DNA from: Promethearchaeota archaeon
Lineage (GTDB): Archaea > Asgardarchaeota > Lokiarchaeia > Sigyniarchaeales > SOKP01
Reading direction: 5' to 3'
Assembly: GCA_029838195.1 (NCBI GenBank)
Contig: JALGVJ010000001.1
Location: forward strand, 1 to 64,000
Length of the DNA: 64,000 bases
Each line of letters opens with the position of its first letter. Positions within the stretch are counted from its first letter, which is position 1. Made by a program: the position numbers and the translations under genes. The notes below the pieces were generated by a model. That model did not search any database. It was not told the DNA's origin and saw only the letters and a list, made by a program, of their open reading frames with translations. Positions 1-28,803 of this stretch are shown piece after piece.

Positions 1-1966
1 TTAAGACGAGAATTTTTTGAGCTCTAGAAAATGCTACATAGAAATGTCTTGCTCTATCAAATTCAGTTATTCGTTTAATTGGTTCATACAAACCACGATT
101 ATAAAATTTATTTAGATACTTATCAACAATTTTTTTGGTTCTAAATTCCTCATCTAAAGAACCCACAATGGTAATTGGAAATTCTAAACCTTTTGACTGA
201 TGAAATGTCATTATTTGGACATAACCTTTTGGAATAGGATTATCAGAATCTTCATATTCATCCATTCCTCCATCTATTAAAAAGTTAAAAAAACTGTTAA
301 AAAGTAGAAATTTTATATAATTTTTATTTGAAAATGTGATTATTGATACCTGATAGTAAATTTGGAAAATGCTCAAAATCTTGGAAAATTTTGATAAATT
401 TCTTGATTTTGGTTCATTTTTAATAAAATTTAAAAAAGGTTTGTAAGCAAGAATTTGATAAAAAATATCAATTAAGTTTAAATCAAGTGATTCTCCTTTT
501 TTAAGTGAATTTATCCGCTCTCTCCTTCTTCTAATGAAATCTCTCAGTGAGGTATTGTAATATTTTTGAATTAATAATAATCCTTCATCAATGAAATTCT
601 TATTTTTATAATCTTGTAAATTTTCATCGAAAAAACCGAAAATTAAAGCGAAACAAGCCATCATTAATTTAATTTCATCATTTTCGAAATAAGATTTCGC
701 TCTCGGACAAAAATAGGGGATGTTGATCTTTTCTAAAGCATCCATATATTTTTTACTGTATTTAAATCGTACACTTCTTAATAATAAAGCAACATCACTA
801 TAATCTTGAATTATTTTATTTTTTTTAAAAAAATATATCATTTGGGCCAAACGTGTTGCTTCATCTTTTTCATTACAGCCCCAAATACAAAAAATTGATG
901 GATATTTTGGAAATTCTTCATTTGGAGGAGGCTTTATAATTTTATTTGGATATCTATAGATTTTCTCAGATTTAGAACTCCAATCGATTGAACTCATAAA
1001 TTTATTATAAGATTTAATTATCCTCGGATGAGAACGATAATTAAATAATAATTTTATGGTTTTAATATCATTCTTAAAATGCTTTGGAAATTCTAAAATA
1101 TTCCTTACTGTTGCTCCTCTGAATCTATAAATTGATTGATCTTCATCACCAACGACACAAATATTATTATTTGGTTCACTTAAAAATAAAATTATTTGTT
1201 CTTGTACATAATTTGTATCTTGATACTCATCAATCATTAGATATTTTATCTTAGTTTTAATTTTTTTTGAAACTTTTGGATCATTTAATAACTTAAAAAC
1301 TAATAATTGAAGATTGGCGAAATCAATTTTATTATCCTTAAACATTAATTCTATATATTTAACATAACAATTTCCAAGTATTTTTACAAAAGAATCAATA
1401 GAATCGATAAGATCTCTGGGTTTAATAAGCTCCTCACTAATTTTATTAAAAAAAGGCACTATATTTTTTATAGTTGTCCATTTTGTTTTCCATCTTCCAC
1501 AATATCTCTCATTTATAAGTTCTCCGATTATAGAATCAAAATTTTCATAAATAAAAAAATATTGAGTAAGGTCATCAAGTATTATATAATTATTTTTAAG
1601 TGGAGTATATATCAAATTTCTTAAAATTATATCATTACATAAGCTATGAATCGTTCCAATCTTAATCTCTTGAAGCGAAATTTTTAACTTTATCTTTTTA
1701 ACAATCTGACTTAATCGATCTCTTAATTCAAATGCAGCCTTCTCAGTAAAAGTGGTTAATAGGATTTCCGAGGGTTTAGCTTTTCCAGACATAATTAAAT
1801 ATAAAGTTCTTAATATTAAGACTAAGGTTTTACCCGTTCCAGGACCCGCAATGATTAATAAAGGACCATCTGTAGTTATAATTGCCTTTTTCTGATCTAG
1901 ATTTAAAGTAGGAAATATTCTTTCAAAAATTTCTAAAATTGGGTCATCTAATTCTATTTTTCCCAT
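1..1966 (-). CDS. UvrD/PcrA/Rep-family SF1 DNA helicase (3' end runs off the window; absent from ORF track)
   Basis: Manual translation from ATG at 1966 gives MGKIELDD...LLIIAGPGTGKT (Walker A), LLTTFTEKAA, IDEYQD (Walker B), VGDEDQSIYRFRGA, NYRSHPRI, MTFHQSKGLEFP and FYVAFSRAQ. Confidence 0.93.
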   Translation of the reverse strand, partial: MGKIELDDPILEIFERIFPTLNLDQKKAIITTDGPLLIIAGPGTGKTLVLILRTLYLIMSGKAKPSEILLTTFTEKAAFELRDRLSQIVKKIKLKISLQEIKIGTIHSLCNDIILRNLIYTPLKNNYIILDDLTQYFFIYENFDSIIGELINERYCGRWKTKWTTIKNIVPFFNKISEELIKPRDLIDSIDSFVKILGNCYVKYIELMFKDNKIDFANLQLLVFKLLNDPKVSKKIKTKIKYLMIDEYQDTNYVQEQIILFLSEPNNNICVVGDEDQSIYRFRGATVRNILEFPKHFKNDIKTIKLLFNYRSHPRIIKSYNKFMSSIDWSSKSEKIYRYPNKIIKPPPNEEFPKYPSIFCIWGCNEKDEATRLAQMIYFFKKNKIIQDYSDVALLLRSVRFKYSKKYMDALEKINIPYFCPRAKSYFENDEIKLMMACFALIFGFFDENLQDYKNKNFIDEGLLLIQKYYNTSLRDFIRRRRERINSLKKGESLDLNLIDIFYQILAYKPFLNFIKNEPKSRNLSKFSKILSIFQIYYQVSIITFSNKNYIKFLLFNSFFNFLIDGGMDEYEDSDNPIPKGYVQIMTFHQSKGLEFPITIVGSLDEEFRTKKIVDKYLNKFYNRGLYEPIKRITEFDRARHFYVAFSRAQKILVL

Positions 1967-3624: not shown

Positions 3625-4545
3625 ATGCATTTTGTAGAGAAATTAATTGAACAAATCATAGATAAAAAAAGCGTGATATGCATGGGATTAGATCCTCGCA
3701 TGAACGGCGAAGGACAAATACCACGTTATCTCATTGAAGAGCTTCAAGAACCAAATAAAATTATTAGGGAATTTAATAAGATTTTGATCGATAATGTCCA
3801 CGATTTAATTCCCGTGGTCAAGCTTCAAATCGCATTTTATGAAAAATATGATGCCTTGAGTGCTCTAAAAGATACGGTTAAACATGCGCACGAGAATGAT
3901 TTATTAGTGATAATAGACTCGAAAAGAAATGATATTGGTTCTACTTCTGAAGCTTATGCAGAGTCCACGTTCTATGTATACGGTGCCGATGCCTGCACGT
4001 TAAATGCGTATTTTGGCTACGACAGTATTGCCCCCTACTTAAAATATAAAGATAAAGGCTTATTCATTTTAGTGAAAACCTCGAATCCCAGTAGCAAGGA
4101 GTTTCAAGATTTATTTAGCGTGAAATTAGATGCCGTGCCGGAAAATCAAATTAAATTTCATATCAATCATATCGAATTGGAACGAAATTACATTAAAATG
4201 GCAAGATTAGTGAATGAATGGAGTAAAGATTTGGAAATGTTTTCCTCCTATCATGATATGGGAGTAGTAGTGGGGGCTACTTATCCTACCATCTTAAAAG
4301 AAATTCGAACCATCGTGAAGCACTCCTTTATCCTCATGCCCGGCTACGGAACACAAGGAGCTACCGCCTCGGATATAAAACTTGGTTTCCATGAAGATGG
4401 TCTAGGGGGAATCGTTAATTCTTCAAGAGGAATCATGTTTGCTTATCGCAATTCTGCCTTACATGGAGCACGAGATTTTGGAAAAGCCGCCCGAGAAAAA
4501 GTGCTAGAAATGAATGCAGAAATTAATAGAGCGATTGGCTTGTAA
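3625..4545 (+). CDS. pyrF: orotidine-5'-phosphate decarboxylase
   Basis: CMGLDP, KLQIAFYE, DSKRNDIGST, VKTSNP, VVGAT, PGYGTQG and VNSSRGI motifs. Confidence 0.95.
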   Translation: MHFVEKLIEQIIDKKSVICMGLDPRMNGEGQIPRYLIEELQEPNKIIREFNKILIDNVHDLIPVVKLQIAFYEKYDALSALKDTVKHAHENDLLVIIDSKRNDIGSTSEAYAESTFYVYGADACTLNAYFGYDSIAPYLKYKDKGLFILVKTSNPSSKEFQDLFSVKLDAVPENQIKFHINHIELERNYIKMARLVNEWSKDLEMFSSYHDMGVVVGATYPTILKEIRTIVKHSFILMPGYGTQGATASDIKLGFHEDGLGGIVNSSRGIMFAYRNSALHGARDFGKAAREKVLEMNAEINRAIGL

Positions 4546-4570
4546 AATCATGAATTCAAAGATATTTCGC

Positions 4571-4978
4571 TTAAATAGAATTGACAATCATACCAAAAAT
4601 ATTAGCAAAAATGATAAACGGAATCCCAAACAAGAGAAACACTACAAGCGATCTTTTGGCTCCCAATCGATGAATCATGTTAATTAAATTATAATCGACG
4701 AAAAGCGCTAAAAGGATAACAAGAAGGATAGCGGGATTATTCTCTCCATTAAATTCTCCCGCAATTCCAAACAAGATGAAAGGCAAGAAAACAAAAAAGA
4801 TTACGAGTAATTGAATGAAAAAACTAATGATCACCCAATAGAAGTTTTTCCTCTCTTGGGCTTTCACAATCATGAGCCCTATTTTTAGCAAAACAATTTC
4901 GGTTAAAATGAACACCGGGATGAAGATAAATAGGGCAACTAAGTTGGGAGGAGATTCTTGAAAAAGCATGAAAAACAT
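4571..4978 (-). CDS. small 4-TM membrane protein
   Basis: Four hydrophobic segments in 135 aa. Confidence 0.7.
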   Translation of the reverse strand: MFFMLFQESPPNLVALFIFIPVFILTEIVLLKIGLMIVKAQERKNFYWVIISFFIQLLVIFFVFLPFILFGIAGEFNGENNPAILLVILLALFVDYNLINMIHRLGAKRSLVVFLLFGIPFIIFANIFGMIVNSI

Positions 4979-5188
4979 GATTATTTAAACTCCTTTCTTC
5001 TTGATTCTTAATGCATTTACTTTCTCACTTATATTTTTAATATAGAAGATTTTTGATTTAAAATTAATTACTTTCTTTCAGATACATGTTCTAATTAAAA
5101 ATTAAAAGGAATGAATATTTTCGATCTTAATCAAGATTTATAAAAAACTTGGAGGATAATTAAAAAAAAGAAAAAGGAAATACGTGCA

Positions 5189-7150
5189 ATGGTAGATACA
5201 GAGAACCAAGATGATATCAAAATTTTCGTTGCTGTCTGTGAATGTGGAATAAATATCGCTGAAATTATTGACTGTGAAAAATTGGCTGAATATACCAAAA
5301 ACTTGCCCAATGTCGTAGGAGCAAAAAACTATCTGAGTTTATGCACGGAAGCCGGTGCTGAATTTATTAGGGAAAATGTGGAAGAAAGCAAGGCTAATCG
5401 GGTCATTGTGGCCGCTTGAACTCCTAAAACCCATGAGCCCGTTTTCCAGAGCGTGCTTAAATCCATGAACATGGATCCCTCCTATTTAGAATTTGTCAAT
5501 ATAAGGGAACATTCGAGCTTCGTTCATCGCAATGATAAGCCTGGCGCTCAAAAAGTGGCCGAAGATGCAATTAGATCTGCTGTGGCTCGAGCTTCCACCT
5601 TGGAAAAAATCTTAGTTAAAAAAGTCGATGTCACTAAAAAATCCTTAATTATCGGGGGAGGTGTCGCTGGATTAACCGCCGCCATCGATCTTGCCGACCA
5701 AGGATTTGATGTGCACTTGGTAGAAAAAACTCCTACAATAGGCGGTAAAATGGCCATGTTAGATCGAACATTCCCTACAGATGATTGCTCCATCTGAATA
5801 TTAGGACCCGTGATGCTCGAGTCTGTCCGAATGGATAAAATACACGTGCATACCTATAGTGAAATAGAAAAAATTGAAGGATATATCGGAAATTTCACCG
5901 TAACTATTAGGAAAAAAGCACGATACGTGAAAGACACGTGTAATGGCTGTGGAGCGTGCACGGAAATTTGTCCTGCGCACGGATACGATGAATTCAACCA
6001 AGGATTAAATCCAAGAAAAGCAATCTACATCGCTTTTGCCCAAGCAGTGCCGTCCATGGCTCAAATTGATATGACAAAATGTATTCGATGCGGATTGTGT
6101 CAAAGCGTGTGTGAACTAAAAGCCATTGATTTCGAGCAAGAAGATGAGTTCATTGAGGAAAAGGTTGGATCCATCATTATTGCAACGGGTTGGGACGAAT
6201 ATGAGCCTCCAAAAGGATATTTAGGGTACGATATATATCCTAATGTCATAACGCAGATGAAATTGGAGCGAATCTTGGCACCAAACGGTCCTACGACGGG
6301 ACATCTCGTGCGACCTTCGGATGGAAAACGTCCAAAAAGGATCTTGTTTGTTCAGTGTGTTGGGTCTCGGGATTTGAATAAAAATACTTATTGCAGTTCG
6401 GGCGTGTGTTGCATGATCTCCATTAAGAATTCGAAGCTAATAAAGCAGCATTATTCGGATTCAGAAATTACCGTGGCTTACATGGATATAAGAGCAGCGG
6501 GAAAAGATTACGAAGAATATTATACTATGTCTCGTAAGGAGGGAATCAAATATATTCGAACCAATATCTCGAAAGTGGAAGAGGATCCGGAAACGCACAA
6601 CCTTAAAATCATCTTGCAAAACACGTTGAGTTCAGAAAAATTAACCGTGGAAGAATTTGACATGATTGTGTTATCGGCGGCATTAGTACCCCCCAAGGGC
6701 ATTAAAAAACTGCAAAAAATGCTGAAGCTTGAAACTAGCAGGGATGGGTTTTTCAAAGAATTTCATTCGCGCTTAAATCCGATTGATACCAACGTTCCGG
6801 GAATTGTATTAGCCGGGGTTGCACAAGGTCCCAAATCCATCGCGGAAGCAATTGCTCAAGGAAGAGCTGCAGCTTCTTCTACGGCTCGCCTCATGACAAA
6901 GGACAAATTCGAAATTAAATTAATTCGAGCCACCGTAGACAAGGAAAAATGCGCTGCATGTCGATTGTGCGAATTAAATTGACCTTATAACGCAATCAAG
7001 ATAGAACAAGAAGGAGCTAACGTAAATGAAATTTTATGTCGAGGATGTGGGGCTTGTCTTTCAGAATGTCCCTCGGAAGCCATTTCCTTAAGGTATTATC
7101 GAGAACCTCAATATGAAAAACAAATTGATGCAATTTTAGAAGAAATTTAA
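5189..7150 (+). CDS. hdrA: heterodisulfide reductase subunit A, selenoprotein (653 aa; Sec at residues 77, 203, 598)
   Basis: Track ORFs 5189, 5453 and 5810 share one frame, joined by TGA at 5417 (VAA-U-TPKTHE), 5795 (DDCSI-U-ILGP) and 6980 (CAACRLCELN-U-PYNAI). The frame then continues through CRGCGACLSECP to TAA at 7148-7150. HdrA motifs: VCECGINI, VNIREH, IIGGGVAG, QCVGSRD, YCSSGVCC. Confidence 0.95.
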
Positions 7151-7163
7151 AAAGGTAATAAGT

Positions 7164-7655
7164 ATGGCAGAGAATGACATTAAGATTATCGGATTTTTAT
7201 GTTGGAAATGAGGGTATGGGGGAGCAGATATGGCAGGGACCATTCGGGCTCAATATCCGGCAACATTACGGCCCATTCGGGTAAATTGTACGGGGAGAGT
7301 GACGCCAAATCTCATGCTACGTGCTATCGCAAGAGGAGCTGATGGCGTGGTATTAGCGGGCTGATATCCGGGAGAATGTGATTTTGATACGGGTAATTAT
7401 GTTGCTAAGCGAAATACAGAGTATGCTCGAGAAATTCTGAGGAGCGTGGGGCTTTCACCGGAACGAATTCAAATCTTCTGGTGTTCCGCTGCGGAAGGAC
7501 AAGTATTTCAAGAGAACATTGAGCGGATCACGGAAACTATTAAGAAATTAGGCAGCAACCCCTTGAAAGAAGCGATAAAAAAAGGAAATGAGAAACAATC
7601 TCTTGTCGGTTCTAAAGGAAATAAAGAGAAAAGAACAAAAAACCGAAATGGATGA
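7164..7655 (+). CDS. mvhD: MvhD/VhuD [2Fe-2S] hydrogenase delta subunit, selenoprotein (163 aa; Sec at residues 16 and 67)
   Basis: ATG 7164 follows AGGT. Translation: MAENDIKIIGFLCWK-U-GYGGADMAG...IRVNCTGRV...GADGVVLAG-U-YPGECDF...GLSPERIQIFWCSAAEG, with TGA at 7209 and 7362 at MvhD Cys positions. Confidence 0.93.
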
Positions 7656-7710
7656 ATTTTGTGAGGAAATATTTGTCACAAAATGACGACCTTGCGAGGG
7701 TTTCGGGTTT
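7640..7710 (+). promoter_or_regulatory. eukaryote-type SECIS element
   Basis: Helix I AAACCGAAA/TTTCGGGTTT; core ATGAA (7652-7656) opposite TGAC (7684-7687); helix II ATTTTGTGA/TCACAAAAT; apical loop GGAAATATTTG with AAA. Lies directly 3' of two TGA-recoded genes. Confidence 0.85.
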
Positions 7711-7714
7711 ATAT

Positions 7715-7790
7715 TCATTTTTCACTTTTCCATAATTTTTTTAAAATTTTTTAATTTTTATTTTTAGTTTTTATCTTAATTTTTATTAAG
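7715..7790 (+). terminator. oligo-T-rich tract, probable archaeal terminator region of hdrA-mvhD
   Basis: Several T5-T7 runs immediately after the SECIS. Confidence 0.4.
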
Positions 7791-7800
7791 GAATTGCATC

Positions 7801-9099
7801 ATGGGTAAAAAGGATCCTTCTGAATATTATTTAAAAGCCCAATCGCTTTATAAAGCTTCCCAATTTAAAAAAGCAGGAAAATATTTTTCTCAAGCGGCAG
7901 AAGAATTTGAACGAGTAGGAGACATGGAGTCTGCAATTGATAGTTATCTTCATGGCGCCCAATCTCATGCGAAAAAAGAAATTTATATCAAGAGTAGTGA
8001 ATTGTTAAGGTTAGCGGGGCACCTTTCAATAATTCATGATCAGTTTTCAAAAGCTCATCAAATATTTCAAAAAGCTCTTGAAGTGGCATCAAAAATAGAT
8101 AAAATCCGGGAGAGGCAGGCATATCAACTATTATTTTCCATTTTTTCGTTTTTCTGTTATTTTTTGGAAGGAGCGGATGATAAAGGGATTCACGGAATTA
8201 AGAAAGTGAAAAAATTCTTGGATGAGAGTTTTTTTAAAAATCATTTCCTCACGAGAGTGGTAAAGGATTTCCTGTTATTTTTTAAAAATCGCAACATGAA
8301 TTACGTGGCAAAAATCGAGGAGGAGTTAATGAGCAATGATTTATTAGAGGGAGAATTAAAATTAATAAAAACCGCTTTAAATATTGCGAAAATTAATCTT
8401 TTCATGAAGTCAGAATTACATTTGGATAAAAGGCTCTATACTACGAATGATCTCATAAAATTAACGGTCACCCTCGATCTCTCCATCATTCAAGAGTTAT
8501 CGGGAAATTCAAATCAAGATTTTCAGATCAAGACCTTTAAAATTACCAGAATCAATATTAATTTAACAGATAATTTTACTACCACGGAAAAACCTGCCCT
8601 TCCCATCATTTTAGACCTCAATCGAGAAACCCTAATCTCTTATGTTATTAAACCACATTTTCAAGTCGAGGAGCCGAAAATAGGCCCCATTACTTTTTAT
8701 TGCATTTTAAATGATACTTTCGCTTTTACCCATGATACAGAGGTTATTAAGCCAAATTTGATTTCTCCCCCCCCAACTCTCCACGCTGAGACTAAGAATC
8801 TGAGACCTCCTTTAACGGATAAATCATTTCCATTACAAATCACGGTGGAAAACATGAGTGAGGGAGATGCTCATGATTTAAACTTGACAGTATTGCTTCC
8901 CGATCAACTTAAATTAATCCGGGGAACTCTGGAAAAAAAGGTGTATTCTTTAAATTCTTACGAAAAAATCACGTGGGAGCTTCAATTAAAACCTATAGAA
9001 GCCGGAGATTATCAATTAGAATTGCAATTGAAGTATAAGGATGGAGATGGAAATATAATTGAAAATTTAGAACAATTCCCCATATCCGTGAAAATGTAA
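7801..9099 (+). CDS. TPR/SNAP-like helical repeats plus C-terminal Ig-like beta-sandwich domains
   Basis: N-terminal A/Y-patterned helical repeats; C-terminal alternating beta pattern (FPLQITVEN...WELQLKPIEAGDYQL); no signal peptide. Confidence 0.65.
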   Translation: MGKKDPSEYYLKAQSLYKASQFKKAGKYFSQAAEEFERVGDMESAIDSYLHGAQSHAKKEIYIKSSELLRLAGHLSIIHDQFSKAHQIFQKALEVASKIDKIRERQAYQLLFSIFSFFCYFLEGADDKGIHGIKKVKKFLDESFFKNHFLTRVVKDFLLFFKNRNMNYVAKIEEELMSNDLLEGELKLIKTALNIAKINLFMKSELHLDKRLYTTNDLIKLTVTLDLSIIQELSGNSNQDFQIKTFKITRININLTDNFTTTEKPALPIILDLNRETLISYVIKPHFQVEEPKIGPITFYCILNDTFAFTHDTEVIKPNLISPPPTLHAETKNLRPPLTDKSFPLQITVENMSEGDAHDLNLTVLLPDQLKLIRGTLEKKVYSLNSYEKITWELQLKPIEAGDYQLELQLKYKDGDGNIIENLEQFPISVKM

Positions 9100-9158: not shown

Positions 9159-10652
9159 ATGGCTTTAACACCCGAGGCTATTTTTAATGATTTTCAAAGA
9201 AACCTTATAGATAAGGAAACAGCCACGGAACTCTTTTTATCATTAATAGATAATGTAGAGAGCATGCAAATTCGAATTTTAAGTATGAAATACCTAATAA
9301 AATTAAAAGTAAGGAGCCCTAAAGTTTATAAAATTTTAGAAAACACGTGCATATCTGATTTAAATGAAAAAGTTCGAATTCAAGCAGCTAAAACCCTTAT
9401 GAACTTGCATGCGGAAAGAGCCCTCCCGCTGATGAAATGGCTCTTATTTAATGAAAGATCCTTAACTATGTTAATTTCTATTACGAAAATGGTCGGAGAA
9501 TTCAAATCACATCAAGCCAGAACCATATTGTTAAAAAAATTTGTTGAAATTAGAAAAAAAAAATATAAATATAACATAAAACATTTTCCGAAAGAGTTGA
9601 ATGCGGAAGATCTCTCGAATAGGGAATTGGGTGAGATTTTAATAAATTATTTCCTCATTTCAGCTTTAAAATTGAAATTAGGGTATATAAAATTTGAACC
9701 TAATGATTTTGGATCCATTATATCGTTAGATTTATCTAATGCAGATTATCAAGGCTTAGCGTGGAATACTCTATCAACTTCTTTAGAATCCATTCTCTCT
9801 CTTTCTTTCTTGAAAAAATTGAATTTAAGCAACAATCACTTGAGATCGCTCCCGGACATCGTGAATAAATTCAATTCGCTTGAAGAAATGGATTTGAGTC
9901 ATAATAATTTGTCCCAATTACCAGAAAGCATTTCTACCTTTGAAGATTTAAAGATTTTAAATCTCAAATCAAATCAATTAAGATTTTTACCTTCATCCAT
10001 TGGAAATCTGAAATCGTTAGAAAAATTAATTTTGAGAAATAATATTTTGAAGGAAATCCCTGAATCCTTAGGCTCTCTTACTTCTTTACAACTTTTAGAT
10101 TTACACCATAATCAATTAACGGAACTTCCCTCTACTCTTAAAAATTTAGAACATCTTTCTTTTCTCGAATTGGGATGGAACAATTTTCAAACCCTCCCTG
10201 TGGGGATAAAATCAATCTCGGCTCTTTCAGAATTGGATTTTAGTCGTAATAACTTAACAGAACTACCTCATTGGATGGAAAAATCAACAACTCTAAGAAA
10301 ATTAGACTTACCTGACAATAAATTATCAAATATTATATCTCTCCCTCCCAATTTAGAATATTTAAATTTAAGAAATAATCAGTTCACTAACCTTCCCGAA
10401 TGTTTATCCTCTTGTACATCCTTAAAAGTTTTAAATTTTAGTTGGAATCAATTAAAGACACTTCCTGATTGGATAAGTTCTTTAAAATCCCTAGAAACAC
10501 TAAATTTTTGGGGAAATAAATTAAATGAAATTCCTGAATCAATAAATGAATTGGAGAATCTTAAAATTATGTATCTTAATTTTAATAAAATTAAAGAAAT
10601 ACCAGCCCCCCTAAAAGAGCTGGAAGAAAGAGGTTGCTCGATAAAAATTTAA
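9159..10652 (+). CDS. HEAT-repeat plus leucine-rich-repeat protein
   Basis: N-terminal ISDLNEKVRIQAA HEAT-like motif; about 12 LxxLxLxxNxLxxLP repeats. Confidence 0.9.
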   Translation: MALTPEAIFNDFQRNLIDKETATELFLSLIDNVESMQIRILSMKYLIKLKVRSPKVYKILENTCISDLNEKVRIQAAKTLMNLHAERALPLMKWLLFNERSLTMLISITKMVGEFKSHQARTILLKKFVEIRKKKYKYNIKHFPKELNAEDLSNRELGEILINYFLISALKLKLGYIKFEPNDFGSIISLDLSNADYQGLAWNTLSTSLESILSLSFLKKLNLSNNHLRSLPDIVNKFNSLEEMDLSHNNLSQLPESISTFEDLKILNLKSNQLRFLPSSIGNLKSLEKLILRNNILKEIPESLGSLTSLQLLDLHHNQLTELPSTLKNLEHLSFLELGWNNFQTLPVGIKSISALSELDFSRNNLTELPHWMEKSTTLRKLDLPDNKLSNIISLPPNLEYLNLRNNQFTNLPECLSSCTSLKVLNFSWNQLKTLPDWISSLKSLETLNFWGNKLNEIPESINELENLKIMYLNFNKIKEIPAPLKELEERGCSIKI

Positions 10653-27828: not shown

Positions 27829-28803
27829 ATGATAACCTCCATAGAACGTATTGTCGAAGAATATCATGAGAAAAAAATCGATATTGATACTTTATACAAT
27901 CACGTGCTATCGATAATCGAGGTATGTGATGATGATCAAATTAGAAGGAAATATATCTTCTCTTTAAATAAAATCATTCCTCTCTTGCCAAAAATAAAAA
28001 GAAGCTCTCTTTTAGAGTATTTGGAACAACTACTCTTATCCGAAATAAATCCTGCTATTAAAATCACAACGATTTCTGTCCTTCAATCATGGACTAAGAA
28101 TAAACTTTTAAATCCATTAAAATGGATGCTCCAACACGAAACAAACTATGAATGCTTGGTGTCAATAATAAAATCATTAGCTTGCCTTGAAAGTACTATT
28201 AGTAAAAAAATATTACTTAAAGAGTTAAAAAAAATCAGAAAAAAAGTATTCATGGATGAGAAAAAGCAAATTAAAAATATTAAATATAGACAAGAACTTA
28301 AAAAACTATTTGAAAATAAAACAATCTATGCTCTAACGCCTGAGAAATTAGCAGATATTCTCATCAATTATCATACCATTAAAATTTTAAAAGAAAAATT
28401 CTTTTCCGTTTATTATGAACTTGAAAAAGGATGCGTCATTGAATTGGATTTATCCGATGTGGAATACGAAGTAAGAGGATGGAAACCCGAATTTAAAAAT
28501 AATATAAAAAGCTTATTAGAGATCCCGGGCTTGGAAAATTTAAAATATCTTCGAAGACTCGACCTTTCCAATAATCAAATACAAAGTATTAAAGAATTGT
28601 TGCCCCTTAAAAACTTGACTCATCTTTATTTGGGGAATAATCAACTTCAAGATAAAGCAAATATTAAATGGATTAATAAGATGGAAAACCTCCGATATTT
28701 AGAAATAATTGGTAATAAAATCGCAGATAAAAAATATATTCATGAATTTAACCCTAATATGGAAATCTTGATAAAACGCACTAATGTCCCAACCTTCTCG
28801 TGA
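27829..28803 (+). CDS. HEAT plus short LRR protein (same N-terminal family as the three above)
   Basis: LLLSEINPAIK, LKWMLQHE, LADILINY, IELDLS; 3-4 SDS22-like LRRs. Confidence 0.82.
   Translation: MITSIERIVEEYHEKKIDIDTLYNHVLSIIEVCDDDQIRRKYIFSLNKIIPLLPKIKRSSLLEYLEQLLLSEINPAIKITTISVLQSWTKNKLLNPLKWMLQHETNYECLVSIIKSLACLESTISKKILLKELKKIRKKVFMDEKKQIKNIKYRQELKKLFENKTIYALTPEKLADILINYHTIKILKEKFFSVYYELEKGCVIELDLSDVEYEVRGWKPEFKNNIKSLLEIPGLENLKYLRRLDLSNNQIQSIKELLPLKNLTHLYLGNNQLQDKANIKWINKMENLRYLEIIGNKIADKKYIHEFNPNMEILIKRTNVPTFS

What the first reader, a model, noticed from the sequence alone, without database searches (positions are those of the whole stretch)
5189..7710. Bicistronic selenoprotein operon: five recoded UGAs apparently served by one eukaryote-type SECIS
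Seen: hdrA has 3 and mvhD has 2 in-frame TGA, all at conserved Cys positions. Only 13 nt separate the genes, too little for a hairpin. The one SECIS-like structure I found lies after mvhD, about 2.2 kb from the first UGA. Other genes here (hisD, acdA, kdgK) use TGA as a normal stop. Known: eukaryote-like AUGA/AA/GA SECIS elements and HdrA/VhuD selenoproteins have been reported in Lokiarchaeota, so the system class is not new. Inference: one 3' SECIS recodes across a translated downstream cistron, combining prokaryotic operon structure with eukaryotic SECIS logic.
Basis: partly seen in the sequence, partly recalled or inferred. Interest (0 to 1): 0.85.

Follow-up and report, generated by a model that had tools for sequence, protein, structure and literature searches.

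The report
Known Asgard hdrA-mvhD shared SECIS
Two adjacent redox-enzyme genes of a Loki-type Asgard archaeon carry five UGA codons that are very probably read as selenocysteine, guided by one RNA signal after the second gene; this is real, but the arrangement was published in 2016, so this is one more example of it.

Summary
hdrA (5189-7150) has in-frame TGAs at codons 77, 203 and 598. mvhD (7164-7655) has them at codons 16 and 67. All five align with Cys, or with the known Sec, in solved HdrA and MvhD structures. The gap between the genes is 13 nt.

One lokiSECIS lies at 7652-7686 (AUGA, 9-bp stem, 11-nt loop, GA), 2235 nt after the first UGA. A covariance model built from the genome's eight such elements finds no second one in 4800-8200 (52 bits against at most 11). 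The genome has tRNA-Sec, SepSecS, SelB, a PSTK-like gene and a Sec-containing SelD, and TGA is an ordinary stop in other genes of the window.

All 28 orthologous loci with enough downstream sequence have exactly one element after mvhD. In all 29 loci, the window's included, hdrA ends in TAA or TAG.

This scan has already reported hdrA-mvhD pairs elsewhere in this genome.

Two small extras: Sec598 replaces the fourth Cys of a CX2CX2CX3CP iron-sulfur motif (2 of 78 homologues), and a conserved mini-hairpin follows the SECIS. Low interest; a new member of a known kind.

The parts
5137..5147 (+). A/T-rich UUUAUAAAAAA, a possible archaeal TATA box 42-52 nt upstream of the hdrA start codon (inferred only)
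   Evidence: Sequence read; no promoter test was run.
5189..7150 (+). hdrA, heterodisulfide-reductase subunit A homologue, 653 codons, TAA stop, three in-frame UGA codons
   Evidence: PDB 9sfi_A at 1e-202 over residues 9-651. Third-codon-position substitution bias in all four segments between the UGAs, measured against the 84%-identical orthologue L031.
5417..5419 (+). UGA codon 77 (AAU-TPK), in the N-terminal domain
   Evidence: Aligns to Cys in 9sfi_A. Sec in 16 of 78 Asgard homologues and Cys in the other 62.
5795..5797 (+). UGA codon 203 (DDCSIU), the canonical HdrA Sec next to FAD, in a CxxU pair
   Evidence: Aligns to X (Sec) of 9sfi_A. Sec in 78 of 78 homologues. The equivalent Sec197 of M. 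maripaludis forms a Cys-Sec pair (PMC13518236).
6980..6982 (+). UGA codon 598, at the place of the fourth Cys of C588-x2-C591-x2-C594-x3-U598-P in the C-terminal ferredoxin domain
   Evidence: Aligns to Cys of CKVCALMCP in 9sfi_A. Sec only here and in L061, Cys in 76 of 78. The 55 codons after it differ from L031 by 6/3/25 substitutions at codon positions 1/2/3.
7151..7163 (+). 13-nt intergenic spacer AAAGGUAAUAAGU with a Shine-Dalgarno-like AGGUAA 5 nt before the mvhD AUG
   Evidence: Under an ATG-only rule for the mvhD start, the spacer is 13-15 nt in 17 of the 29 orthologous loci.
7164..7655 (+). mvhD/vhuD (FlpD family), 163 codons, two in-frame UGA codons; its stop is the UGA inside the SECIS AUGA
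   Evidence: PF02662 at 2.8e-44. PDB 9sw2_D at 1.3e-38.
7209..7211 (+). UGA codon 16 of mvhD (CWKU-GYGG)
   Evidence: Aligns to Cys in 9sw2_D. Sec in all four Sec-type paralogues of the genome, Cys in the Cys-type ones.
7362..7364 (+). UGA codon 67 of mvhD (LAGU-YPGEC)
   Evidence: Aligns to Cys in 9sw2_D. Paralogue comparison.
7643..7706 (+). Complete SECIS. Helix I is CCGAAAU 7643-7649 paired with GUUUCGG 7700-7706. AUGA 7652-7655. Helix II is 7656-7664 paired with 7676-7684. Apical loop GGAAAUAUUUG 7665-7675. GA 7685-7686. A 3' mini-hairpin CCU-UGCG-AGG lies at 7690-7699.
   Evidence: Stem covariation among 8 elements of the genome and 28 orthologues.
7718..7785 (+). T-rich tract with seven runs of 5 or more T; a likely archaeal terminator directly after the SECIS (inferred)
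   Evidence: 7 such runs in the 145 nt after the mvhD stop (7656-7800), all downstream of the SECIS, against 2 in the 2467 nt of hdrA-mvhD.

Best explanation
This is a two-gene selenoprotein unit of a Promethearchaeota (Lokiarchaeia-type Asgard) archaeon.

Inferred: hdrA and mvhD are transcribed as one mRNA that ends in the T-rich tract after 7706. The single eukaryote-like lokiSECIS in the 3' untranslated end has a kink-turn AUGA/GA core, a 9-bp helix and an A-containing 11-nt loop. It recruits the archaeal Sec-specific elongation factor carrying Sec-tRNA(Sec). Acting at a distance, like a eukaryotic 3'-UTR SECIS, it lets ribosomes read all five upstream UGAs as selenocysteine: three in hdrA, 2235 to 672 nt away, and two in mvhD, 443 and 290 nt away.

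The hdrA stop is TAA, so it cannot be recoded. The mvhD stop is the UGA inside the SECIS core. A ribosome that reaches it has already melted the element, so that codon terminates.

Shown here: the gene identities, the UGAs at Cys/Sec positions, a single SECIS, complete Sec machinery, and conservation of the layout. Inferred: co-transcription, actual Sec insertion, and the long-range mechanism.
For: Genes and Sec positions.

All four hdrA segments between the UGAs are under in-frame purifying selection.

Single SECIS: model R1 with filters off over 4800-8200 gives 52.2 bits for 7640-7698, and 11.3 bits or less, E >= 0.24, for everything else. Rfam finds nothing at E<=10.

Sec machinery: tRNA-Sec at C3:36948-37040. 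SepSecS at 483.6 bits, 650 nt downstream of it. SelB at 255.6 bits, over the cut-off, on the same contig. A KTI12/PSTK-like gene. SelD with one TGA.

Conservation: 28 of 28 orthologous loci with enough downstream sequence have exactly one R1 hit right after mvhD. In all 29 loci, the window's included, hdrA ends in TAA or TAG. Three other Sec-type hdrA-mvhD pairs lie in the same genome.

The stem covaries: 7 of 9 pairs change on both sides among orthologues and 9 of 9 among the genome's elements.

T-runs cluster only after the SECIS. TGA is a normal stop elsewhere in the window.

The same model is published in PMC4989117 and PMC11227280.
Against: There are no transcript, proteomic or reporter data for this or any Asgard locus in the papers I read, so Sec insertion and polycistronic transcription are not demonstrated.

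If transcription and translation are coupled, the first ribosome would reach UGA77 long before the SECIS, 2.2 kb downstream, has been transcribed. The model does not explain this.

My search for a second element covers lokiSECIS-like, Rfam and simple-hairpin signals only. A T5 run at 7194 lies inside mvhD. The apical loop ends UUG rather than the usual UAG.

The eight elements behind R1 were picked by a pattern that required the stem, so their pairing is partly by construction. The loop conservation and the orthologue data are independent of that selection.
Confidence: 0.85

Rival explanations
1. hdrA has its own hidden recoding signal, not of the lokiSECIS type, inside its coding sequence or just after each UGA as in bacteria. 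The element after mvhD would then serve mvhD only.
For: The 70 nt after UGA77 fold better than shuffles (z -2.66, 3 of 200 shuffles as good). In the paralogous pair on contig C84 a weak AUGA...GA mini-hairpin lies in the 3' end of hdrA (17.9 bits, E 0.03).
Against: The other four UGAs show no excess structure (z -0.40 to +0.94). Across 78 homologues, the 70 nt after Sec codons are no more structured than after Cys codons at the same sites: mean z -0.15 against -0.10 at codon 77, and about 0 at codons 19 and 203. R1 with filters off and Rfam find nothing. RNAz in Mariotti et al. also reported nothing else. The C84 hit has no counterpart in the window.
Confidence: 0.06
2. The two genes are transcribed separately, for example from a promoter inside the 3' end of hdrA. 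The hdrA UGAs would then be decoded by a SECIS acting in trans, or not at all.
For: No transcript data exist. An internal promoter within hdrA cannot be excluded from sequence alone.
Against: A 13-nt gap holds no terminator, promoter or hairpin. Oligo-T runs are nearly absent from 5189-7655 and dense right after the SECIS. In all 29 loci hdrA avoids a TGA stop, as expected if the downstream SECIS acts on it. The tight linkage is conserved in every locus examined and in the literature. An extra mvhD-only transcript would not remove the need for a full-length one.
Confidence: 0.05
3. The TGAs are not read as Sec. The genes would be pseudogenes or assembly errors, or UGA would be read as Cys or Trp by near-cognate suppression, or hdrA would end at codon 598.
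For: No proteomics. The genome is a metagenome-assembled genome with 7.9% contamination. Sec598 is rare, in 2 of 78 homologues.
Against: The TGAs fall exactly on conserved Cys/Sec columns, and the same positions recur in dozens of genomes. Every segment, including the 55 codons after UGA598, shows third-position-biased substitution. A complete Sec pathway and a SECIS accompany them. TGA terminates ordinary genes here.
Confidence: 0.04

Closest known systems
Lokiarchaeota HdrA-VhuD tandem selenoprotein pairs sharing one lokiSECIS (Mariotti et al. 2016, PMC4989117); called the hdrA-frhD cluster with a type I eSECIS-like element by Huang et al. 2024 (PMC11227280)
   Same: Gene order hdrA then vhuD/mvhD on one strand with a very short gap. 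Multi-Sec HdrA that includes the canonical site, and two Sec in VhuD. One SECIS, found only after the second gene. AUGA, 9-bp stem, 11-nt loop ending in G, then GA. An hdrA stop that is never UGA. A span of about 2 kb. The use of the AUGA's UGA as a stop codon was described there for VhuU.1.
   Different: This copy has Cys, not Sec, at codon 19, which is Sec in 70 of 78 homologues. It has Sec at codon 598, the fourth Cys of a ferredoxin motif, with no Cys beside it. The published cluster-motif Sec in HdrA.2 is described as being in the last motif and followed by an extra Cys. The loop starts GGAAA and ends UUG. Here it is the mvhD stop that lies in the SECIS core.
Eukaryotic 3'-UTR SECIS (type I), Rfam SECIS_1 RF00031
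   Same: [quoted passage not shown]
   Different: The upper helix is shorter (9 bp). No Rfam SECIS family matches even at E<=10. It serves two cistrons. There is an extra 3' mini-hairpin between the GA and the lower helix. No SBP2 was found in Lokiarchaeota by Mariotti et al.
Methanococcales/Methanopyrus VhuD and HdrA selenoproteins with the archaeal (GAA_A bulge) SECIS
   Same: Orthologous proteins. The canonical HdrA Sec (Sec197) and the two VhuD Sec positions are the same. The SECIS is in the 3' UTR, and the VhuD SECIS there also carries AUGA...GA(C).
   Different: HdrA there has one Sec. Mariotti et al. infer that it had its own SECIS, which degenerated in Lokiarchaeota. The maximum known span there was 50 codons within one gene.

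Membership tests
lokiSECIS / Asgard type I eSECIS-like element | AUGA immediately before the main stem | tested here: met
   AUGA at 7652-7655; invariant in 8 of 8 elements of the genome.
lokiSECIS / Asgard type I eSECIS-like element | 9-bp stem and 11-nt apical loop | tested here: met
   7656-7664 pairs perfectly with 7676-7684; the loop 7665-7675 is 11 nt.
lokiSECIS / Asgard type I eSECIS-like element | A-rich start of the apical loop; G at the last loop position, usually preceded by A | tested here: inconclusive
   The loop is GGAAAUAUUUG. AAA at loop positions 3-5 and the final G are present and invariant in alignment A1. The first two bases are GG and the base before the last is U, not A. 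G[U/G]AAA loop starts are reported variants.
lokiSECIS / Asgard type I eSECIS-like element | GA (or AA) directly after the stem | tested here: met
   GA at 7685-7686.
lokiSECIS / Asgard type I eSECIS-like element | Lies right at the end of a selenoprotein coding sequence, and only after vhuD in hdrA-vhuD pairs | tested here: met
   It overlaps the mvhD stop. It is the only hit in 4800-8200. The same holds in 28 of 28 orthologous loci.
lokiSECIS / Asgard type I eSECIS-like element | Directs Sec insertion at upstream UGA codons | not testable with these tools
   Needs a reporter assay, 75Se labelling or proteomics. None exists for Asgard archaea in the papers read.
HdrA (heterodisulfide reductase subunit A) selenoprotein | Full-length similarity to solved HdrA, with FAD-binding and ferredoxin domains | tested here: met
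   9sfi_A at 1e-202 over residues 9-651; 5odc_A at 8.5e-200; Pfam Pyr_redox_2 and Fer4.
HdrA (heterodisulfide reductase subunit A) selenoprotein | Sec at the canonical position near residue 200 | tested here: met
   UGA203 aligns with the X (Sec) of 9sfi_A; 78 of 78 homologues.
MvhD/VhuD (FlpD, PF02662) selenoprotein | FlpD domain with two Sec at the VhuD positions | tested here: met
   PF02662 at 2.8e-44 covering profile positions 1-123 of 123. UGA16 and UGA67 align to conserved Cys.
Archaeal/eukaryotic Sec-decoding trait in the host genome | tRNA-Sec, SepSecS, PSTK, a Sec-specific elongation factor and SelD are present | tested here: met
   The PSTK candidate is below the NCBIfam cut-off (153.6 against 290.5 bits) but is a full-length KTI12-family kinase.

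The most novel reading that the evidence does not exclude
Sec598 of this HdrA would be a natural selenolate ligand of a [4Fe-4S] cluster. It replaces the fourth Cys of the CX2CX2CX3CP motif in the C-terminal ferredoxin domain, with no spare Cys nearby. The same replacement occurs in a second genome of another genus (L061). In neither of the two Asgard selenoprotein papers I read did I find a Sec at a cluster-ligand position without a backup Cys. A weaker second candidate is the 3' mini-hairpin with a (U/C)GC loop, found in all eight SECIS elements of this genome. It may be an undescribed functional module of the lokiSECIS.
Probability: 0.4. Interest if true: 0.45.

Novelty: new member of a known kind. 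Interest (0 to 1): 0.22.

Why it matters
The shared SECIS of hdrA-vhuD pairs is the most extreme known case of one recoding signal serving many distant UGAs across a cistron boundary. It is also central to the argument that the eukaryotic SECIS arose in Asgard archaea. That significance belongs to the 2016 and 2024 papers. This locus adds another well-resolved example, with conserved helix I, core, loop, mini-hairpin and terminator, that could be used for a reporter or for structure probing. It also offers a rare HdrA variant with Sec at an iron-sulfur ligand position.

Tried and rejected
**Rfam.** A scan of 4500-8500 at E<=10 gave no SECIS family and only chance hits. Published tools are known to miss lokiSECIS.

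**Unconstrained folding.** Folding 7630-7720 gave z -1.64 only, so energy alone does not single out the element. The motif and covariation do.

**Loose pattern scan.** A scan of the genome for [AG]TGA-9-11-9-[GA]A gave 72 hits, mostly chance. Only eight share the conserved loop and have a TGA-containing frame ending at or just before them.

**Weak R1 hit at 1907-1959 (-).** At 22 bits, it lies at the start of an ordinary gene and has a poor stem. Rejected as chance.

**Hairpin after UGA77.** Not conserved among Sec77 homologues. Rejected as a local SECIS.

**Counting helix I and mini-hairpin pairs on alignment A3.** The MAFFT alignment is out of register. I relied on constrained folding of each sequence instead.

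**sigma-70 promoter/terminator scanner.** Not used, because it does not apply to archaea.

**VhuD Sec residues as [2Fe-2S] ligands.** I could not establish this from the papers available.
Full report
**Observation**

Reading TGA as a sense codon joins the fragmented ORFs of 5189-7655 into two genes. The first, 5189-7150, has 653 codons, a TAA stop, and TGAs at 5417, 5795 and 6980, which are codons 77, 203 and 598. The second, 7164-7655, has 163 codons and TGAs at 7209 and 7362, codons 16 and 67.

Pfam gives an FAD/NAD-binding domain and four 4Fe-4S motifs for the first protein, and FlpD (PF02662, 2.8e-44, full profile) for the second. Against solved structures the first matches HdrA end to end (9sfi_A 1e-202, 5odc_A 8.5e-200) and the second matches MvhD/VhuD (9sw2_D 1.3e-38).

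In those alignments codons 77 and 598 of HdrA and both MvhD sites face Cys. Codon 203 faces the 'X' that stands for the selenocysteine of the methanogen enzyme. The gap between the genes is 13 nt, AAAGGUAAUAAGU, with a Shine-Dalgarno-like AGGUAA.

TGA is not reassigned. Eleven of 39 other long ORFs in the window end in TGA. Among them, hisD (Pfam profile 3-410 of 411), an ADP-forming acyl-CoA-synthetase-like gene and an M24 peptidase (2-207 of 208) are full length.

**The SECIS**

At 7652-7686 lies AUGA, then AUUUUGUGA, then the loop GGAAAUAUUUG, then UCACAAAAU, then GA. This is a perfect 9-bp helix with an 11-nt loop, flanked by the AUGA...GA kink-turn quartet.

A pattern scan of the whole 4.5-Mb assembly found eight such elements that also share a loop consensus, NNAAAUNNUAG. 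That consensus was not part of the search pattern. Each has a TGA-containing reading frame ending at or just before it. All nine stem pairs change on both sides among the eight elements. Their pairing was a selection criterion, so the independent evidence is the invariant AUGA, AAA, U, G and GA together with the gene context.

I built a covariance model, R1, from the eight. With all filters off it scores the window element at 52.2 bits. Nothing else in 4800-8200, on either strand, scores above 11.3 bits (E 0.24). Over the whole window the next hit, 22 bits at 1907-1959 on the minus strand, sits in the first codons of an ordinary gene and lacks a proper stem. Rfam has no match to any SECIS family even at E 10, as Mariotti et al. 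also found for their loci.

**Sec machinery**

The assembly is 96.6% complete with 7.9% contamination. It has:
- a tRNA-Sec (ARAGORN anticodon UCA; Rfam RF01852 at 53.9 bits) at C3:36948-37040;
- SepSecS 650 nt downstream of it (483.6 bits);
- a SelB-type factor 5 kb away (255.6 bits, over the cut-off);
- a full-length KTI12/PSTK-like kinase;
- a SelD that itself contains one TGA.

**Conservation**

The genome holds four Sec-type hdrA-mvhD pairs. Those on C84 and C75 have one strong R1 hit after mvhD. The fourth, at C1:88.9-91.3 kb, has a degenerate one.

A search of 150 genomes of the same class found HdrA homologues with 1-5 in-frame TGAs throughout. Of 29 orthologous loci fetched, 28 have exactly one R1 hit at E<=1, always on the gene strand and just after mvhD. 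The 29th is cut off by a contig end. Seven of nine stem pairs show changes on both sides among them.

In all 29 loci, the window's included, hdrA ends in TAA or TAG and never TGA. The first UGA lies 2.2-2.5 kb from the SECIS. In seven loci, including the window, the mvhD stop is the UGA of the AUGA core.

Named relatives are Promethearchaeota/Promethearchaeia metagenome-assembled genomes, that is, Lokiarchaeia-type Asgard archaea.

**Rival explanations**

*Local, bacterial-type signals.* Of the five 70-nt stretches after the UGAs, only the one after UGA77 folds better than shuffles (z -2.66). The others range from -0.40 to +0.94. Across 78 non-redundant homologues, sequence after Sec codons is no more structured than after Cys codons at the same column. 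At codon 77 the mean z is -0.15 against -0.10, and it is about 0 at codons 19 and 203.

*Pseudogene or truncation.* Against the 84%-identical orthologue L031, every segment between UGAs shows third-position-biased change. The counts at codon positions 1/2/3 are 12/8/37, 17/6/65, 56/23/201, and 6/3/25 for the 55 codons after UGA598.

*Separate transcripts.* The 13-nt gap has no room for signals. Runs of five or more T are rare in the coding unit (2 in 2467 nt) and dense directly after the SECIS (7 in 145 nt). This is the pattern expected of an archaeal terminator after a 3' UTR element. It is suggestive only.

**Mechanism**

The best explanation is a single hdrA-mvhD mRNA whose 3' SECIS, together with the Sec-specific elongation factor, recodes all five upstream UGAs at a distance. 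The TAA of hdrA is immune to recoding. The UGA stop of mvhD is not recoded because a ribosome decoding it has already unwound the element.

Gene identity, site identity, the single element, the machinery and the conservation are shown here. Co-transcription, Sec insertion and long-range action are inferred.

One problem is open. If translation is coupled to transcription, the first ribosome meets UGA77 before the SECIS exists.

**Comparison with what is known**

This is the configuration reported by Mariotti et al. 2016 (PMC4989117). They describe tandem HdrA-VhuD with very short or overlapping junctions and multi-Sec HdrA at five Cys-aligned positions that include the canonical one. They find a single lokiSECIS only after VhuD, made of AUGA, a 9-bp stem, an 11-nt loop with a final G, and GA. 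[quoted passage not shown]

Huang et al. 2024 (PMC11227280) extend this to hundreds of Asgard genomes. The 2026 review (PMC13188914) repeats it. None of these papers reports experimental tests in Asgard archaea.

Earlier agents of this scan examined hdrA-mvhD pairs elsewhere in this genome and reached the same verdict. I reached it independently from the calls above.

**What is particular to this copy**

1. *Sec pattern.* Among 78 homologues, Sec occurs at codon 19 in 70, codon 52 in 12, codon 77 in 16, codon 203 in all 78, and codon 598 in 2. The window's HdrA is one of seven with Cys at codon 19. It is one of two with Sec at codon 598; the other is L061, from a different genus.

   Codon 598 is the fourth Cys of C-x2-C-x2-C-x3-C-P, the classical ferredoxin cluster-binding motif. 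No other Cys is adjacent. By homology this Sec should ligate a [4Fe-4S] cluster, which is an inference. The only cluster-motif Sec described by Mariotti et al. is in the last motif and has a spare Cys next to it.

2. *Mini-hairpin.* All eight SECIS elements of the genome are followed, 1-6 nt after the GA, by a small hairpin. Its stems all differ and its loops contain UGC, or in one case CGC. Combining the folding-energy comparisons with shuffles gives Fisher p 0.003.

   In the hdrA-mvhD elements the whole structure is closed by a helix I, CCGAA/UUCGG. With helix II constrained, the folded structure shows both helix I and the mini-hairpin in 27 of 29 orthologues, with compensatory variants such as GCGA/UCGC and UGUGU/ACACA.

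   A divergent paralogue group, in which hdrA stands alone with its own SECIS, has the same three parts. I did not find this arm in the main texts of the two papers. An earlier agent noted it on another pair.

**Verdict**

This is a new member of a known kind, and interest is low.

Noticed in passing
window 6980-6982 (HdrA codon 598); also L061 (G094:C11): Sec replaces the fourth Cys of the CX2CX2CX3CP ferredoxin motif with no adjacent Cys. This occurs in only 2 of 78 Asgard Sec-HdrA sequences. This copy also has Cys at codon 19, where 70 of 78 have Sec.
   Followed up: partly
window 7690-7699; the same position in the SECIS elements at C84:56909, C75:15223(-), C7:32150, C38:69225, C19:29954(-), C34:12266(-), C39:9962(-): A small hairpin with a (U/C)GC-containing loop follows the GA of every lokiSECIS in this genome. 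Every stem is different. In hdrA-mvhD elements a helix I (CCGAA/UUCGG) closes a three-armed structure.
   Followed up: partly
G000:C1:88914-91420 (locus L024), same contig, beyond the window: A fourth Sec-type hdrA-mvhD pair (2 + 1 TGA). Its SECIS-like element is degenerate: AUGC...AA, a 12-nt loop, only 13.8 bits. The mvhD frame runs into the 5' arm of the hairpin and stops at a UAA in the apical loop.
   Followed up: partly
L072, L073, L077 (G110:C1, G145:C214, G074:C122): A paralogue group, 62-63% identical, in which the SECIS lies about 50 nt after hdrA itself rather than after an mvhD. The L073 copy has five TGAs, including Cys-aligned sites at codons 304 and 390, and an AGGA...GA core variant.
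   Followed up: partly
G000:C34:12266(-), C39:9962(-), C7:32150, C38:69225, C19:29954(-): Other SECIS-bearing small genes with in-frame TGAs: one with adjacent codons reading ...GCUU..., a small CxxC-rich protein with several TGAs, and two paralogues sharing the same SECIS stem. Earlier scan notes call some of these HesB/IscA-like and zinc-ribbon selenoproteins.
   Followed up: no
L022:2471-2519 (C84 hdrA 3' end): A weak AUGA...GA mini-hairpin inside the coding end of the C84 hdrA (17.9 bits, E 0.03). There is no counterpart in the window, so it is probably chance.
   Followed up: no
L006:2505-2561 (after selD, C86): The selD 3' end has a variant element: a UUGA core, an 8-bp stem, the same UUAAAUUUUAG-type loop, then GA plus a further hairpin, all inside a lower helix AGAUGCC/GGCAUCU. 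It scores only 15 bits with R1.
   Followed up: no
window 7801-9099 and 9159-10652; 27829-28803: The gene after the SECIS is a 432-aa protein with no Pfam match. Leucine-rich-repeat proteins follow it and recur later in the window.
   Followed up: no
whole genome G000: ARAGORN finds only 15 tRNA genes in 4.5 Mb. This is probably because many archaeal tRNAs carry introns or because the assembly is fragmented.
   Followed up: no
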